Shown here: positions 44,372 through 62,580 of the stretch, piece after piece
Layout: every line of letters begins with the position of its first letter
Position numbering within the stretch: the stretch's first letter is position 1
Assembly: GCA_964016885.1 (NCBI GenBank)
Contig: OZ024751.1
Coordinates: forward strand, 12,648,001 to 12,712,000
Reading direction: 5' to 3'
Length of the DNA: 64,000 nt
Source of the DNA: Eledone cirrhosa
Lineage: Eukaryota
Position numbers and translations under genes: made by a program
Notes under the pieces: generated by a model
The model's database searches: none
What the model saw: only the letters and a program-made list of their open reading frames with translations
Told to the model about the DNA's origin: nothing

Positions 44372-44600
44372 TGTATGAAAGACGTAAAATAAGAAAATTT
44401 TAAAAATTAAAAATTAAAAACTAAAATTTTAGTAAGTAAGTTAATTTTTAATTTTTAAAATTTTCTTATTTTACGTCTTTCATATAATTGTTCTGCATCC
44501 CCCCTGCATAGAACCACCTAGGTACTTTGACATAACTTATATATTTGTTAGCATTAGTGTACATCTGTACGCATATGTTGGTAGATGTACTAATTCTCTA
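44372..44600 (+). mobile_element. Short diverged relative of the 556-bp unit with a 5' fold-back
   Basis: 44460-44600 matches the reverse complement of 55972-56110 (for example GAACCACCTAGGTACT); 44372-44420 is the inverted arm. Confidence 0.75.
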
Positions 44601-44957
44601 TATATGTATACATATAACACACACATATATATCATACATATATGTGATAGGAAAATTAACTCTCTCCAGCAATAACACAACTAGTATGTTGGTATAATGT
44701 AAGTTTATTAAATTCTAGATTATAGAATTCTCTCCGTCTATTTCAATATTATGTTCATCAACGATCTGGACGCCTAAATTTCCAGTGGTACAGCTAGTTC
44801 GGGACAATACATGTATGCATGTATATATACATGTACACACGTATGCATCTATATAAAAAAAAATGTATATATATATTATATATATATATCCAGCGAACCT
44901 TCAACCGTCAGGGTTGTTTTTCTACGGGTATGTCAACATTTATAAAACATATTTTGT

Positions 44958-54885: not shown

Positions 54886-55591
54886 TGTCAGGTCACCAGT
54901 TGGTGCTACTGGTAACATGTATCCCAGTACAACCTGTCTCATGGTCGGGTCGTTGGCGACTAAAGTGGCAACCCCACCAAGGTTTCTTGGTGAGGAGGGT
55001 GACTTTGGACATCCTGCAGGACTAAAAACAAAACCTGTCAAAGGGCAAAGGAGCTCTTAAGAGTCAATGGCCATCCAAAATCACCGGGAGAGATGACCCC
55101 TTAGCCTTTGTCAAGGCAGAATTCTAGGAGAAGGAAAACTCTGATATAACACCTGCAACCCTGATGGTATCCAATGATGTTGACTTGTTCTTCTTTTTGG
55201 TAAATATCATCTTGGTTAAGAGAGTGGGACTGGCTTTGTGCAATGCCTTTGCTCACTATAAAAGCTTCACGGCACAGGCATTGCTTTATATCTGGAGATC
55301 TCTCTGCACTTGTCATCACATGGTACCATGGGCCCAGCACTGTGTGTCAATAATTGTCACAGGTGTAGTGTTTGTACCAGAGTTTTCAAGTCGCTGGCTG
55401 GACTCAAAAGTCACACTCGTTCAGCGCATCGGTAGGGTTTCTCCTACATGGATATAAAGTAGTGGCTGTACTCGAAAACGAGTTGGCAGCCACCATATAT
55501 ATATGTATATATGTATGTATATATATATATATATATGTATGTATATATATATATGTATATATGTATGTATATATATATATGTATATATGTA

Positions 55592-55627
<36 letters not shown>

Positions 55628-55735
55628 TATATATATATGTATATATGTATGTATATATATATATGTATATATGTATGTATATATATATAGATATATATGT
55701 ATATATGTATATATATATATGTATATATGTATGTA

Positions 55736-55769
<34 letters not shown>

Positions 55770-56165
55770 TATATATATATGTATATATGTATGTATATAT
55801 ATATATGTATATATGTATGTATATATATATATGTATATATGTATGTATATATATATATGTATATATGTATGTATATATATATATGTATATATGTATGTAT
55901 ATATATGTATGTATGTATATATATATACATACATATGTATATATGTATGTATATATATATATGTATATATGTAGATAATTTAATATATCAACTAACATAG
56001 GCGCACAGATGCACGTCCATGCCAGCAAATACACAGGTTATGTCATAGTACCTAGGTGGTTCAATGCAGGAGGGTGCAGAACAATAATATAAAAGACGTA
56101 AGATAAGAAAATATTTTTTAAAAAAATTTTTTTTTTAAATCTTTTACTTACTTACTTAAATTTTC

Positions 56166-56247
56166 ACTCCAACTAATTAGTTTCTGCAATGGGATAAAGA
56201 CAGTTACGTAATCCAACTGTCGAGAATTCATTGCGTCATCAGGGAGT
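56166..56247 (-). ncRNA. Type I hammerhead, extended stem II (copy 1)
   Basis: Reverse complement: actcc-CTGATGA-c-gcaatg..gacagtt..aactgtc..cattgc-a-GAAA-ctaattag-TT-ggagt. Confidence 0.85.
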
Positions 56248-56721
56248 CTATTCTCAGCTGAGTCTCCAGGCAATGCGCGGACACTGGCGGCTCATATAAA
56301 AATAATAATAATTCGGTAGAAAGAACAGCTGGCGAGGACTGGATTCCATGTACTGAAATTCTCACTGCTTCTAGTCAAATGGCCGATTCTAAAGAATCAA
56401 TCACGTGACACAGAGGCTAGTTAGAAGGAATGGGATGGTAAGATGACTGACGCCTACTAACACCCCAAAAAAAATTTAGAAGTGGTTTTGGCAGGTTTGC
56501 TCGACAAATCAGTGATTTGGAGATAAATATAGATAATTTAATATATCAACTAACATAGGCGCACAGATGCACGTCCATGCCAGCAAATACACAGGTTATG
56601 TCATAGTACCTAGGTGGTTCAATGCAGGAGGGTGCAGAACAATAATATAAAAGACGTAAGATAAGAAAATATTTTTTTTAAAAATTTTTTTTAAAACTTT
56701 TACTTACTTACTTAAATTTTC

Positions 56722-56803
56722 ACTCCAACTAATTAGTTTCTGCAATGGGATAAAGACAGTTACGTAATCCAACTGTCGAGAATTCATTGCGTCATCAGGG
56801 AGT
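56722..56803 (-). ncRNA. Type I hammerhead, extended stem II (copy 2)
   Basis: Identical to 56166-56247. Confidence 0.85.
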
Positions 56804-57211
56804 CTATTCTCAGCTGAGTCTCCAGGCAATGCGCGGACACTGGCGGCTCATATAAAAATAATAATAATTCGGTAGAAAGAACAGCTGGCGAGGACTGGAT
56901 TCCATGTACTGAAATTCTCACTGCTTCTAGTCAAATGGCCGATTCTAAAGAATCAATCACGTGACACAGAGGCTAGTTAGAAGGAATGGGATGGTAAGAT
57001 GACTGACGCCTACTAACACCCCAAAAAAAATTTAGAAGTGGTTTTGGCAGGTTTGCTCGACAAATCAGTGATTTGGAGATAAATATAGATAATTTAATAT
57101 ATCAACTAACATAGGCGCACAGATGCACGTCCATGCCAGCAAATACACAGGTTATGTCATAGTACCTAGGTGGTTCAATGCAGGAGGGTGCAGAACAATA
57201 ATATAAAAGAC

Positions 57212-57763
57212 ATATATATGTATGTATATATATATATGTATATATGTATATATGTATGTATATATATATATATGTATGTATATATATATATATGTATGTA
57301 TATATATATATATGTATGTATATATATATATATGTATGTATATATATATATATGTATATATGTATGTATATATATATATGTATGTATATATATATATATA
57401 TGTATGTATATATATATATATGTATATATGTATATATATATATATGTATATATGTATGTATATATATATATATATGTATGTATATATATATATATATGTA
57501 TGTATATATATATATATATGTATGTATATATATATATATATGTATGTATATATATATATATGTATATATGTATGTATATATATATGTATGTATATTATAT
57601 ATATACATATGTATATATGTATGTATATATATATATATACATATGTATATATGTATGTATATATATATATATATGTATATATATGTATGTATATATATAT
57701 ATATATGTATATATATGTATGTATATATATATGTATATATATATATGTATATATGTATGTATG

Positions 57764-57842
<79 letters not shown>

Positions 57843-58011
57843 GTATATATGTATATATGTATGTATGTATATATATATATATGTATATATGTATATATAT
57901 ATATATGTATATATGTATGTATATATATATATATGTATGTATGTATGTATATATATATATATGTATGTATGTATATATATATGTATGTATGTATATATAT
58001 ATATATGTATG

Positions 58012-58062
<51 letters not shown>

Positions 58063-58199
58063 GTATATATATATATATGTATATATGTATGTATATATAT
58101 ATATATGTATATATGTATGTATATATATATATATGTATATATGTATGTATATATATATATGTATATATGTATGTATATATATATATGTATATATGTATG

Positions 58200-58258
<59 letters not shown>

Positions 58259-58315
58259 GTATATATATATATATGTATGTATGTATGTATATATATATAT
58301 ATGTATATATGTATG

Positions 58316-58348
<33 letters not shown>

Positions 58349-58371
58349 ATATATATATGTATATATGTATG

Positions 58372-58402
<31 letters not shown>

Positions 58403-58447
58403 GTATGTATATATATATATATGTATGTATGTATATATATATGTATG

Positions 58448-58496
<49 letters not shown>

Positions 58497-58555
58497 GTAT
58501 ATATATATATGTATATATATATATGTATATATATATATATGTATATATATATATG

Positions 58556-58602
<47 letters not shown>

Positions 58603-58689
58603 ATGTATATATATATATATGTATATATATATATGTATATATATATATATGTATATATGTATATATATATATATGTATATATATATATG

Positions 58690-58720
<31 letters not shown>

Positions 58721-58749
58721 GTATATATATATGTATATGTATATATATG

Positions 58750-58798
<49 letters not shown>

Positions 58799-58837
58799 GT
58801 ATATGTATATATATGTATATATATATATATGTATATA

Positions 58838-58872
<35 letters not shown>

Positions 58873-58923
58873 GTATATGTATATATATGTATATATATAT
58901 ATATGTATATATGTATATATATG

Positions 58924-58968
<45 letters not shown>

Positions 58969-59083
58969 ATATGTATGTATATATGTATATATGTATGTAT
59001 ATGTATATATATATATATGTATGTATATGTATATATATATATATGTATGTATATGTATATATATATATATATGTATGTATATG

Positions 59084-59115
<32 letters not shown>

Positions 59116-59424
59116 TATATACATATATATATGTATATTTGTATGTATATATGTATATATATGTATATATATATATGTATGTATATATGTATATATATAT
59201 ATGTGTATATATGTATGTATATATGTATATATATGTATATATGTATGTATATATGTATATATATGTATATATGTATGTATATATGTATATATATGTATAT
59301 ATGTATGTATATATGTATATATATGTATATGTATATATATGTATATATATATATATGTATATATGTATGTATATATATGTATATATATATATATGTATAT
59401 ATGTATGTATATATGTATATATAT
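57212..59424. repeat. 2.2-kb (TA)/(TATG) microsatellite
   Basis: Direct reading. Confidence 0.96.
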
Positions 59425-59550
59425 GTTTTGGGAAGATGGGACAGGAAGTCGATATCATCCCGGATGAAAATGGGTATGTGAATACATAGTGGTTTCAAAA
59501 TAATGTCAACAAAATTGCTTAGACGGTGAGTGGGGCATGTTGGACCAGTA
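59425..59550 (-). pseudogene. Inverted Penelope-like reverse transcriptase fragment
   Basis: [39 protein letters not shown] resembles the PLE RT segment after the RPI motif. Confidence 0.8.
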
Positions 59551-59909
59551 CATGTGAATCCATACACGCCGGTCAATATATGAAAACAAAAACTGGAAAA
59601 ATATTCCCAAATGCAAATATGAACTGCAAAAGCAGAAATCTAATTTACTGCATTAAATGCCCGAATTGTGAAGAACTATATGTCGGTCAAACTGGCAATG
59701 CACTATCGGAACGTGCACGGGTACACCGTCAACAAATCAGAGACCCAAATGTCCGTCAGATACCCCTAAGCGGCCACCTGGCAACATGTGGTCAGGGAAT
59801 ATTTATAATATTCCCATTCTACAAATTACACAGCCCAAGTGAAATCAAGAGAAAAATCAAAGAAAAGATTTGTATTGATAAATTCAAACCCAAGCTAAAT
59901 GAACAATAA
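59550..59909 (+). pseudogene. Penelope-like (Neptune-type) C-terminal GIY-YIG endonuclease fragment
   Basis: [29 protein letters not shown]...H...H...R.IKEK..I.KF.P.LN. Confidence 0.88.
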
Positions 59910-60289
59910 TAACGCCTAGGGGTATTACTTCTACTACCACTATGACCACGACCACTAACAACAACAACAACAACAACAACAACAATAATAATAATAAAAG
60001 TGATGTTGATGGTGATGATTAATAGAAAATGCTATTTTCAACATTTCAAAAAGCAAAACAATTGATACGTTGGGTATGACTATTGGACGTTAGCATGCTC
60101 AACCAGCCGTGACGCTTAAACCAATCAGCTGTAGTAATTCAGTGAAACTACACACTGATTGGTCGAAATACAGTTTACAGGGCTTTGCATTCTGGAGCCA
60201 CTTTTCTCTGTATAAAATGTATAAAAGGTAGTAAATTTACCCATCTCATTACAGTTGAAAATTGCAAACTCGACTGTCACCACATATCA

Positions 60290-60328
60290 TGAACCTGAAG
60301 ATTGCGAAAGCATGAAAGTACTTGTTCA
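60290..60328 (+). ncRNA. Minimal type I hammerhead in the 3' region of the Neptune-type element
   Basis: tgaac-CTGAAGA-t-tgc-gaaa-gca-t-GAAA-gtac-TT-gttca. Confidence 0.85.
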
Positions 60329-61041
60329 ATTAACACTTAGAATTTAATATTCTATCATACTATTTCATTATAATACCATATTATATATATTTTAAAGGAT
60401 TGTAAATAAAACGAGTAAACACACACACATACTTATACTCGCGCATATAAACCCGTATGCATGCCCACGCATGACACTGAGTAAGTAACAAAAGGGGGAA
60501 GGGGGGGGAGAAGAAAAAAGGAACAAAAACATAAAACCGAAATATCAAAAACACGGATATAAAGACACTTACATATACGCATAATATATACATACGCACA
60601 CGAACAAACACCTGTACACACACACATACATACATACACGCATATATATATATACATATACATACAGGCACGCGCGCGCACATACGTAGTTACTCATATA
60701 CATATATAAAAAGTATACACACATTAAGGCGTTCAGCCATATTGAAATGTGGATAAATAAGTACAAATATAAAATTGTTAGATAGGCTGCGCAAAAATAA
60801 AATAAAAATAAAAATGAAAAATATATCTGGATTGAAAAACACAAAAGACAAGTATAATCAGTTAGTGTAGGAAAAAGGGAAGTAAAAGAAGGGGAAGTAA
60901 AAAATAGAAAATAGGAAGTGGATCGGAGAATAAGGGGGGGGGTTAAATAAAAATAAATAAAAGTGAAAATAAATGAAATTATTGACAAGGAAAAGAATGA
61001 AAGTAAGTCAGAAAGGGTAATTAATAGAGAATAATAAGAGT

Positions 61042-61415
61042 TTATGGAGGATAAGTATCTGAACGTGTGTTAAGTTTATATGAGCTGGAAAGCAGGTGTG
61101 ATTTCATGTGTGGCCAACTGGTAAAAATTTCCGTCTTTGTGTTCAGGCAGGTCTTCGGTGATTTAAGATTTTGCAATATCCAAAATTTTTCATTTATGCA
61201 GAGCGTGCATTTTCTTGATCCTCTAGCATATTTTTTAGATTGGTTCAAAATTGACCAATCTAGTTTATATTGGATACCTTGGTCTTTCAAATCCCAGATT
61301 CTGCTAGCCAGAGCTGTTGTAAATCTTTTTTCTGGATGTCGAAAGGATGCGACATGTGAGTAATAACGCGTTTTGAATCTGTCTTGCGTCATACCCACAT
61401 ATCGTTCACTGGTGA
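61042..61415 (-). pseudogene. Second PLE GIY-YIG fragment (probably Hydra-type, with C-terminal CxxC)
   Basis: YVGMTQDRFKTRYYSHVASFRH...LASRIWDLK...WSIL...KCTLCINEKFWI...LN.KTEI. Confidence 0.82.
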
Positions 61416-61778
61416 CTAAAAACCGGTTTGTCTGTGTGTTTACATACAGAATAGCTGGACACTCACAGTAAAGTGACCAGTGAAAGACTTGGTACATCTA
61501 CATATGTATACGTGTGTGTATTCATATGCATACTAGTATTTCAGTATACATATGTGGATGTACATTTTTAACTTAATTGTTTAAGTGTCAGTCATACAAA
61601 AGTGAGTTACAAACGAAACGAAATTTAATTTCGTTTCGTTATTTGTTTTTATCGTCTCCGTTGAACCGGTACGCACTCACGCTCTATGCAAATTGGTCTG
61701 CTCACTACTAATTTTCATAGAAAAAGCATATGACGATATGTGCTTTTACGATTCTCCAGAAAGGTCGGAAGAAAGGTA

Positions 61779-61823
61779 AATATTGCTGATGAGTTGTAAC
61801 AACAACGAAACTAGTTCAATATT
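61779..61823 (+). ncRNA. Type I hammerhead (copy 1)
   Basis: aatattg-CTGATGA-gttg-taacaa-caac-GAAA-ctag-TT-caatatt; all stems pair. Confidence 0.9.
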
Positions 61824-62243
61824 CCTTGTCTGGCTTTCTGGAGAATAGAGGAAAGGTGTTTCCTCAAAAACCAGTATCACTCTAAAAACCGGTTTGTCTG
61901 TGTGTTTACATACAGAATAGCTGGACACTCACAGTAAAGTGACCAGTGAAAGACTTGGTACATCTACATATGTATACGTGTGTGTATTCATATGCATACT
62001 CGTATTTCAGTATACATATGTGGATGTACATTTTTAACTTAATTGTTTAAGCGTCAGTCATACAAAAGTGAGTTACAAACGAAACGAAATTTAATTTCGT
62101 TTCGTTATTTGTTTTTATCGTCTCCGTTGAACCGGTACGCACTCACGCTCTATGCAAATTGGTCTGCCCACTACTAATTTTTATAGAAAAGCATATAACG
62201 ATATGTGCTTTTACGATTCTCCAGAAAGGTCGGAAGAAAGGTA

Positions 62244-62288
62244 AATATTGCTGATGAGTTGTAACAACAACGAAACTAGTTCAATATT
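62244..62288 (+). ncRNA. Type I hammerhead (copy 2)
   Basis: Identical to 61779-61823. Confidence 0.9.
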
Positions 62289-62580
62289 CCTTGTCTGGCT
62301 TTCTGGAGAATAGAGGAAAGGTGTTTCCTCAAAAACCAGTATGACTCTAAAAACCGGTTTGTCTGTGTGTTTACATACAGAATAGCTGGACACTCACAGT
62401 AAAGTGACCAGTGAAAGACTTGGTACATCTACATATGTATACGTGTGTGTATTCATATGCATACTAGTATTTCAGTATACATATGTGGATGTACATTTTT
62501 AACTTAATTGTTTAAGCGTCAGTCATACAAAAGTGAGTTACAAACGAAACGAAATTTAATTTCGTTTCGTTATTTGTTTT

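What the first reader, a model, noticed from the sequence alone, without database searches (positions are those of the whole stretch)
55972..57211. 556-bp ORF-less hammerhead multimer embedded in a microsatellite
Seen: 2.2 near-identical units between TA/TATG tracts, hammerhead on the minus strand with a ~50-nt two-helix stem II and palindromic AACTAATTAGTT at stem III; a diverged short fold-back relative lies at 44372-44600. Inference: a non-autonomous retrozyme-like family, longer than the metazoan units I recall (a few hundred nt), that inserts both as a multimer and as a palindrome.
Basis: partly seen in the sequence, partly recalled or inferred. Interest (0 to 1): 0.7.

Follow-up and report, generated by a model that had tools for sequence, protein, structure and literature searches.

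The report
Penelope-riding hammerhead retrozyme array
This is one copy of an abundant, protein-free jumping repeat whose half-kilobase unit carries a predicted self-cutting RNA motif; its copies sit in TA repeats with two fixed ends, so it is likely pasted in by the enzyme of a Penelope-type jumping gene, a known kind of element whose copies likely record where its RNA was cut.

Summary
55972-57211 holds 2.2 near-identical ORF-less units (558/556 bp) with a minus-strand type I hammerhead, and 44374-44603 is a fold-back copy of an older subfamily. The family has about 10,000 hammerhead copies in several subfamilies. Stem II covaries, and a stem I-stem II pseudoknot is supported. Copies end at two fixed sites 115 nt apart, both abutting (TA)n. 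Inverted copies pair one end of each kind: 34 A+B, none A+A or B+B among 59 loci. An intact Neptune-type Penelope-like element in the same genome follows this rule (12 of 12), but its ends are not homologous, so the driver is not identified. Inner ends pile up just after the predicted cut (23 of 99, 4.4 expected), which likely records self-cleavage. It is a non-LTR retrozyme, and 556 bp lies within the published 51-972 bp range. Cleavage, circular RNA and expression are untested. This scan reported the same kind of element, end rule and cut-site pile-up before on other DNA.

The parts
55495..55971 (.). Left TA/TATG microsatellite (target tract)
   Evidence: shares an 18-mer TATG pattern with the right tract (13 and 4 counts) that five other TA tracts of the window lack, so it is likely one tract split by the insertion
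55972..56529 (-). Unit 1 (558 bp); its low end is the fixed 'A' end of the insertion (RNA 3' side, 199 nt past the cut)
55972..56086 (-). 115-nt 'tail' between fixed end A (unit position 1) and fixed end B (unit position 116, window 56087)
   Evidence: compare PMC8557442 and PMC11167929
56166..56247 (-). Type I hammerhead 1: 5-bp stem I, core CUGAUGA/GAAA, 51-nt two-helix stem II with C opposite A at its base, palindromic stem III, GUU cut predicted at 56171/56170
56222..56255 (-). Predicted pseudoknot: GAGAA (56255-56251, 5' of stem I) pairs with UUCUC (56226-56222, internal loop of stem II)
56530..57085 (-). Unit 2 (556 bp)
56722..56803 (-). Type I hammerhead 2, identical to hammerhead 1; cut predicted at 56727/56726
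57086..57211 (-). Partial unit 3 (126 bp), the truncated RNA-5' end; single-arm copy with no inverted arm
57212..59425 (.). Right TA/TATG microsatellite
44374..44430 (-). Short B arm of the fold-back relative (older subfamily); stops 6 nt after the cut site
44423..44603 (+). A arm of the fold-back relative; stops 6 nt after the cut site; no hammerhead; the arms meet in a short AT palindrome

Best explanation
The array is a young single-arm copy of a non-coding hammerhead repeat family (non-LTR retrozyme) that is likely copied into (TA)n tracts by the reverse transcriptase-endonuclease of a Penelope-like element, probably of the Neptune type. Shown by the sequence: tandem ORF-less units, a conserved and covarying hammerhead fold, two fixed ends (A and B, 115 nt apart) that abut (TA)n, inverted copies made of one A arm and one B arm from the same subfamily, extra CT repeats only at terminal A ends, and inner ends that pile up just after the predicted cut. 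Inferred: (1) the unit is transcribed on the hammerhead strand and cuts itself at some sites, helped by the pseudoknot and by pairing of two palindromic stems III; (2) the enzyme nicks both strands of a TA tract and starts copying inside the RNA, at site A on one strand and at site B on the other, stuttering as it starts at A; (3) each arm runs until it falls off or meets an RNA 5' end at a cut site, and the two arms are joined, or one arm alone is joined to the target as here; (4) arms of several identical units need a template that can be read round again, either a monomer circle or a linear RNA with a repeated end and strand transfer. Odds: family and Penelope-type mobilisation 0.85; self-cleavage in the cell 0.65; pseudoknot 0.7; circle versus linear template about even.
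For: Copy number: 4282 exact matches of a 27-mer (control 0), 5698 further hammerheads of sister subfamilies, and 4633 exact B ends followed by (TA)n. End rule, 59 loci covering the first 100 listed pattern hits: 34 two-arm A+B, 0 A+A, 0 B+B, 22 single-arm, 3 other. 45 of 45 A ends and 47 of 47 B ends abut (TA)4+, against 1065 of 10348 background positions. In 57 loci chosen by end sequence (9 shared with the first set): 39 A+B, 14 single, 3 cut by the locus edge, 1 unclassified. Within-copy divergence is 0.55% in one arm and 0.73% across arms, against medians of 1.5-11.7% to other loci. In 12 long arrays only 2 variable sites were shared by two units. Fold: 95.7% of cells paired, 10 pairs with changes on both sides, 0 of 500 shuffles as high. 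Pseudoknot letters agree in 95 of the first 100 listed of 1328 matches (60 G-C, 35 A-U; my count). Stops at -2..+21 from the cut: 23 of 99, next highest 24-nt bin 10, seed arms alone 12 of 56, p 6e-6. CT stutter: 95 of the first 100 listed of 280 A ends carry two or more extra CT (my count), and 0 of 261 internal A sites do. An intact 775-aa element with a C-x4-C-x2-C linker and C-terminal GIY-YIG pairs one short and one long end in 12 of 12 inverted copies and shows CT additions. Literature: two RT start sites make the tail and both strands are cut and extended in vitro (PMC11167929).
Against: No autonomous partner with homologous ends was found. The best-characterised candidate scores z -0.6 against the tail, and none of the other hammerhead groups seen three or more times exceeded z 2.1. 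Only 42 short-stem variants exist, all deletion derivatives. The tail is 115 nt, against 30-40 nt in print. The hammerhead has C opposite A next to the core and a GUU triplet, its fold is 4.7 kcal/mol above the minimum, and Rfam does not detect it. Li et al. saw cleavage in only 1 of 9 retrozyme dimers, and the anole element did not need cleavage in vitro. Most stops lie 5-21 nt after the cut, in an AT palindrome, and only about five lie within 2 nt of it, so stalling or microhomology may contribute. The hammerhead-selected sample shows a weaker excess (9 of 92, one a mapping artefact). The pseudoknot changes stem from only one to three lineages.
Confidence: 0.85

Rival explanations
1. The copies are truncated ends (pseudo-LTRs) of an autonomous Penelope-like element, and the tandem units are partial-tandem by-products.
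For: The tail, inversion, TA target and hammerhead are all pLTR features. One locus joins the unit to the end of a Neptune-type element (L070).
Against: All same-strand hammerhead spacings under 900 bp fall at 471-594 bp with no coding remnant. In 19 of 19 other copies of that Neptune-type end the sequence goes on into its own tail or TA. No locus showed the unit as the regular end of an ORF.
Confidence: 0.06
2. The hammerhead is kept as a fold that binds or pauses the enzyme but does not cut. The pile-up of inner ends reflects stalling at stem I and joining at an AT palindrome, and the template is an uncut multimer.
For: C.A at the stem II base in all subfamilies (44 exceptions), GUU triplet, ends spread over 0-21 nt, a second smaller peak inside stem II (10 of 99), and uncut RNA was the main substrate in PMC11167929.
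Against: The catalytic core is conserved while the helices covary. Some ends fall at the cut itself (L232, L242, L264). Stops are commoner at later cut sites (11 of 31) than at the first (12 of 87; p 0.016), which uniform stalling does not predict.
Confidence: 0.25
3. The array is a local satellite made by DNA-level duplication, or an assembly artefact within a microsatellite.
For: It lies between long low-complexity tracts, and the two units are almost identical.
Against: Thousands of dispersed copies have fixed ends. Differences in long arrays are star-like rather than nested. The junction is present in public contigs of two studies.
Confidence: 0.03

Closest known systems
Animal non-LTR retrozymes (Cervera and de la Pena 2020, PMC7229834, parts 2-4 of 6 read; Li, Clavereau and Pollet 2026, bioRxiv 10.64898/2026.07.22.740005, parts 1-3 of 5 read)
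   Same: Non-coding tandem units with one type I hammerhead each, thousands of copies, proposed mobilisation by Penelope-like elements, length within 51-972 bp. A weak pair at the stem II base is known (U.U in axolotl HHR_Amex2).
   Different: Longer than the 170-400 nt circles shown by experiment, with a 51-nt two-helix stem II and a pseudoknot. The parts read do not describe fixed A/B ends, inverted two-arm copies or TA targeting. No homologous autonomous partner was found here.
Penelope-like element insertions with tail and 5' inversion (Craig et al. 2021, PMC8557442, passages; Frangieh et al. 2024, PMC11167929, parts 1-2 of 4)
   Same: Partial tandems, inverted truncated arm, tail at one end only, microsatellite or AT-rich targets, two start sites downstream of the hammerhead. 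Craig et al. also note non-autonomous multicopy head-to-tail Chlamys elements.
   Different: No ORF, and a 115-nt rather than 30-40-nt tail. Both start sites here end in AT/TA letters that match the target, whereas the anole enzyme started at a site not homologous to the cut DNA.
[quoted passage not shown] 2011, PMC3088659, passages)
   Same: Short stem I, long stem II, an unpaired base 5' of stem II, palindromic stem III suited to dimers. A stem I-stem II pseudoknot is common (about 40% of the hammerheads examined).
   Different: An extra A also stands 3' of stem II, and the pseudoknot joins an internal loop of stem II to the 5' flank of stem I. Perreault's stem-length analysis left out repetitive type I motifs.

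Membership tests
Animal non-LTR retrozyme | Type I hammerhead in each unit, in at least two consecutive units | tested here: met
Animal non-LTR retrozyme | Head-to-tail tandem repeats, dispersed at many loci | tested here: met
Animal non-LTR retrozyme | No protein-coding capacity | tested here: met
   longest stop-free stretch 48 codons; only self-overlap hits against 513 local ORFs
Animal non-LTR retrozyme | Unit length in the reported range | tested here: met
   471-594 bp, within 51-972 bp; above the 150-450 bp of PMC7229834
Animal non-LTR retrozyme | No primer-binding site or polypurine tract | not tested
   no search made
Animal non-LTR retrozyme | Self-cleavage of the transcript | not testable with these tools
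   indirect only: inner ends pile up after the cut
Animal non-LTR retrozyme | Expression as linear and circular monomer RNA | not testable with these tools
   only contigs of runs of unrecorded kind were available
Animal non-LTR retrozyme | Sequence kinship with the pLTR of an autonomous Penelope-like element | tested here: inconclusive
   none found among the hammerhead groups in the fetched loci; the genome could not be scanned fully
Autonomous Penelope-like element | ORF with RT and GIY-YIG endonuclease | tested here: not met
Penelope-type insertion signature | Tail at one end, inverted truncated arm, AT-rich or microsatellite target | tested here: met
   tail 115 nt rather than 30-40 nt
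Canonical hammerhead ribozyme | Core CUGANGA, GAAA, NUH and three helices | tested here: met
Canonical hammerhead ribozyme | Watson-Crick pair of stem II directly next to the core (consensus recalled) | tested here: not met
   C opposite A, with G-C as the next pair; only 44 genome matches lack the A; no Rfam hit

The most novel reading that the evidence does not exclude
The template is not a circle but a linear RNA cut at its upstream hammerhead and uncut at its downstream one. A Neptune-type enzyme primes the two target strands at two fixed internal sites of this one RNA, stutters like telomerase as it starts, and rebuilds multimers by seamless strand transfer at the cut end. The roughly 10,000 copies would be a fossil record of in-cell cleavage by a pseudoknotted hammerhead variant with a C.A base, and would overturn the rolling-circle model for animal retrozymes.
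Probability: 0.3. Interest if true: 0.68.

Novelty: new member of a known kind. Interest (0 to 1): 0.42.

Why it matters
How Penelope-like elements insert, what their hammerheads do in the cell and which enzyme moves animal retrozymes are open questions in the papers read. This family supplies exact, testable coordinates: two start sites, an A+B pairing rule, a stutter confined to one start, stops at the cut site, and natural compensatory variants of a ribozyme with an unusual stem II. The class itself is known, and this scan has met it many times in this genome, which limits the surprise.

Tried and rejected
Rfam found no hammerhead: 0 hits on the array, and the 150 listed of 466 whole-window hits were microRNA models on simple repeats and hairpins. 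Expression: no RNA holder listed; this says nothing either way. Autonomous partner: the GIY-YIG genes near copies, short-stem hammerhead variants, the 775-aa family and the L070 junction gave no homologous partner. My first result of no excess of inner ends at the cut (3 of 91) was rejected, because that sample required a hammerhead and so excluded short fold-backs and was mapped to one reference; it was redone on end-selected loci. An apparent excess of ends at unit position 558 was dropped as a BLAST edge effect. Jumping between RNAs of different subfamilies at the cut was not supported: one chimera, L060, switches between unit positions 326 and 450, and 468 of 484 read-throughs of the cut region are exact with 1 insertion. 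A pure snap-back origin of the palindromes was rejected: only 6 of 34 arm pairs end within 10 nt of each other (1.3 expected). Post-insertion serial duplication was not supported. Empty target sites and target duplications were not examined. The look-up of earlier findings by sequence and near this place returned nothing. Paper searches (listings only, unless a paper is cited as read) showed no description of this family. An Octopus vulgaris repeat paper has no mention of ribozyme or retrozyme (PMC13282606, passages). The supplements of the bioRxiv preprint and of the other papers were not seen and may list related consensus sequences.

Full report
Observation. The stretch 55972-57211 is a head-to-tail array of 558, 556 and 126 bp. 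Units 1 and 2 differ only in one homopolymer tract, and no frame is open for more than 48 codons. It lies between TA/TATG tracts that share a compound pattern absent from five other TA tracts of the window, so it likely split one tract. On the minus strand each full unit carries a type I hammerhead: 5-bp stem I, CUGAUGA, a 51-nt two-helix stem II, GAAAC, a palindromic stem III and a GUU cut site. Rfam does not detect it. The relative at 44374-44603 is 77-82% identical, belongs to an older subfamily (95.6% to a unit of locus L138), and has two arms that both stop 6 nt after the cut site. The unit junction is present in public contigs of 3 of 4 runs laid.

Family. The 3.0-Gb genome holds 4282 exact matches of a 27-mer from this hammerhead (control 0) and 5698 matches of a pattern that excludes the window's subfamily, so about 10,000 hammerheads. 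4633 exact B ends followed by (TA)n give a lower bound on insertions. Same-strand spacings under 900 bp are 471-594 bp in all subfamilies, with no coding remnant.

Ribozyme fold. In an alignment of 24 sequences chosen across subfamilies, 95.7% of cells pair and 10 of 31 pairs change on both sides; 0 of 500 shuffles reach the pairing or covariation score, and slid controls pair 37-57% (related sequences inflate this). The first helix of stem II occurs in five fully paired versions. GAGAA 5' of stem I is complementary to UUCUC in the stem II internal loop. Among the first 100 listed of 1328 matches in one subfamily group, 60 are G-C, 35 A-U and 5 discordant (my count). This supports a pseudoknot, though from one to three lineages only; such contacts are common in hammerheads (PMC3088659, passages). 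C stands opposite A next to the core; only 44 genome matches lack that A, scattered over subfamilies. Two stems III could pair over 10 bp (-9.0 kcal/mol), as described for dimer-acting motifs (PMC4209133, passages). Against activity: the hammerhead fold is 4.7 kcal/mol above the minimum, and 8 of 9 Xenopus retrozyme dimers did not cleave.

Insertion anatomy. In 59 loci covering the first 100 listed pattern hits, 34 are two-arm copies with one end at unit position 1-2 (A) and the other at 116 (B). None is A+A or B+B, 22 have one arm and 3 are irregular. All 45 A ends and 47 B ends abut (TA)4+, against 10% of background positions. In 57 loci chosen by end sequence (60 fetched, 3 duplicates dropped, 9 shared with the first set) there are 39 A+B, 14 single, 3 cut by the locus edge and 1 unclassified. 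Both ends are RNA 3' ends on the hammerhead strand, 199 and 84 nt past the cut in the window's subfamily. This is the Penelope 'tail' (PMC8557442, passages), which in vitro reflects two internal start sites, with both target strands cut and extended (PMC11167929, parts 1-2). The tail here is 115 nt instead of 30-40. Terminal A ends often carry added CT repeats: 8 of 45 with three or more, and 95 of the first 100 listed of 280 in an older subfamily with two or more extra (my count). None of 261 internal A sites does, so the stutter likely arises at initiation.

Template. Units and both arms of one copy come from one subfamily: 0.55% and 0.73% divergence within copies against medians of 1.5-11.7% to other loci, with one chimera. 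In 12 long arrays only 2 variable sites were shared by two units, so the units were likely born together. In the end-selected sample 23 of 99 inner ends lie at -2..+21 from the cut (4.4 expected; 18 of 56 loci; seed arms alone 12 of 56, p 6e-6; one end, in L260, is doubtful). The next highest bin, inside stem II, has 10. The hammerhead-selected sample shows 9 of 92, one of them an artefact. Arms stop at 12 of 87 first encounters with a cut site and at 11 of 31 later ones (p 0.016). Read-throughs are seamless (468 of 484 exact). The simplest reading is that many templates have a 5' end at the cut, so the ribozyme likely cuts in the cell; the 44374 fold-back would be two arms run to the end of a cut RNA. 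Stalling at stem I plus joining at an AT palindrome remains a rival, since most ends lie 5-21 nt past the cut. Long uniform arrays need a circle, as proposed in PMC7229834, or strand transfer on an RNA with a repeated end. The higher stop rate at later sites favours the latter slightly; neither is shown.

Driver. [quoted passage not shown] Among 20 loci that I picked as inverted pairs or full frames, 12 show both ends. All 12 pair a short with a long end on (TA)n, one long end being about 15 nt short, and two loci show CT additions. Its tail is not homologous to ours (z -0.6). L070 joins our unit to the end of a second Neptune-type family, but 19 of 19 other copies of that end do not. The class of driver is therefore likely; its identity is open.

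Comparison and verdict. The family meets the sequence-level definition of an animal non-LTR retrozyme, and its length falls within the 51-972 bp reported. It fails as an autonomous element and as a plain pLTR. My nine paper searches showed no description of this family, of the A+B rule in retrozymes or of stops at the cut; supplements were not seen. Earlier unchecked notes of this scan report similar elements, the two-end rule and the cut-site pile-up on other DNA; these are not independent support. I had the end rule before and the pile-up. Verdict: real, a new member of a known kind, with an informative insertion record and an unusual, covarying hammerhead. Interest 0.42.

Noticed in passing
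window 61410-62580 (+): A second tandem array, period about 461 bp and about 2.5 units, with its own type I hammerhead motif at 61786 (GUU site, short stem II), ending in a TA/TG tract; probably another retrozyme-like family.
   Followed up: no
window 59430-60410 (+): 5'-truncated end of a young Neptune-type Penelope-like element (GIY-YIG, PF01541, stop near 59909; hammerhead near 60295) directly after the TATG tract. The family has many intact 775-aa frames.
   Followed up: yes
window 7718, 8213/8227, 20410, 31196, 44965, 47196/47316, 49346: Further hammerhead motifs of unrelated families, two of them as close inverted pairs.
   Followed up: no
L090 (G000:C1:68320500-68328499), after 4286: The opposite arm consists of three to four tandem copies of the last 9 nt of the A end, which looks like repeated re-initiation.
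   Followed up: no
L070 4686-5100: One-off seamless join of this family's arm to the end of a second Neptune-type family, about 10 nt short of that family's usual end; template switch or insertion with deletion.
   Followed up: partly
L045 6900-7550, L070 4690-5100 and L204 5000-5480: The 3' ends of two Neptune-type families show fixed ends on (TA)n but no hammerhead by my pattern scan.
   Followed up: no
L031-L034 (G000:C3:139316000-139536000): Six near-identical copies of one insertion, in two groups of three spaced about 4.9 kb apart; a later segmental repeat rather than separate events.
   Followed up: no
window 56148-56160 (-): Repeated GUAAGU just after the cut site, conserved across subfamilies. 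It pairs with the 5' flank of stem I and also resembles a splice donor (consensus recalled).
   Followed up: partly
window 485-3608 and 10783-15742: Long homogeneous minisatellites, 44 bp x 71 and 21 bp x 236.
   Followed up: no
window 18043-18329: Long inverted-repeat element of about 112-bp arms around TA tracts, forming a near-perfect hairpin.
   Followed up: no
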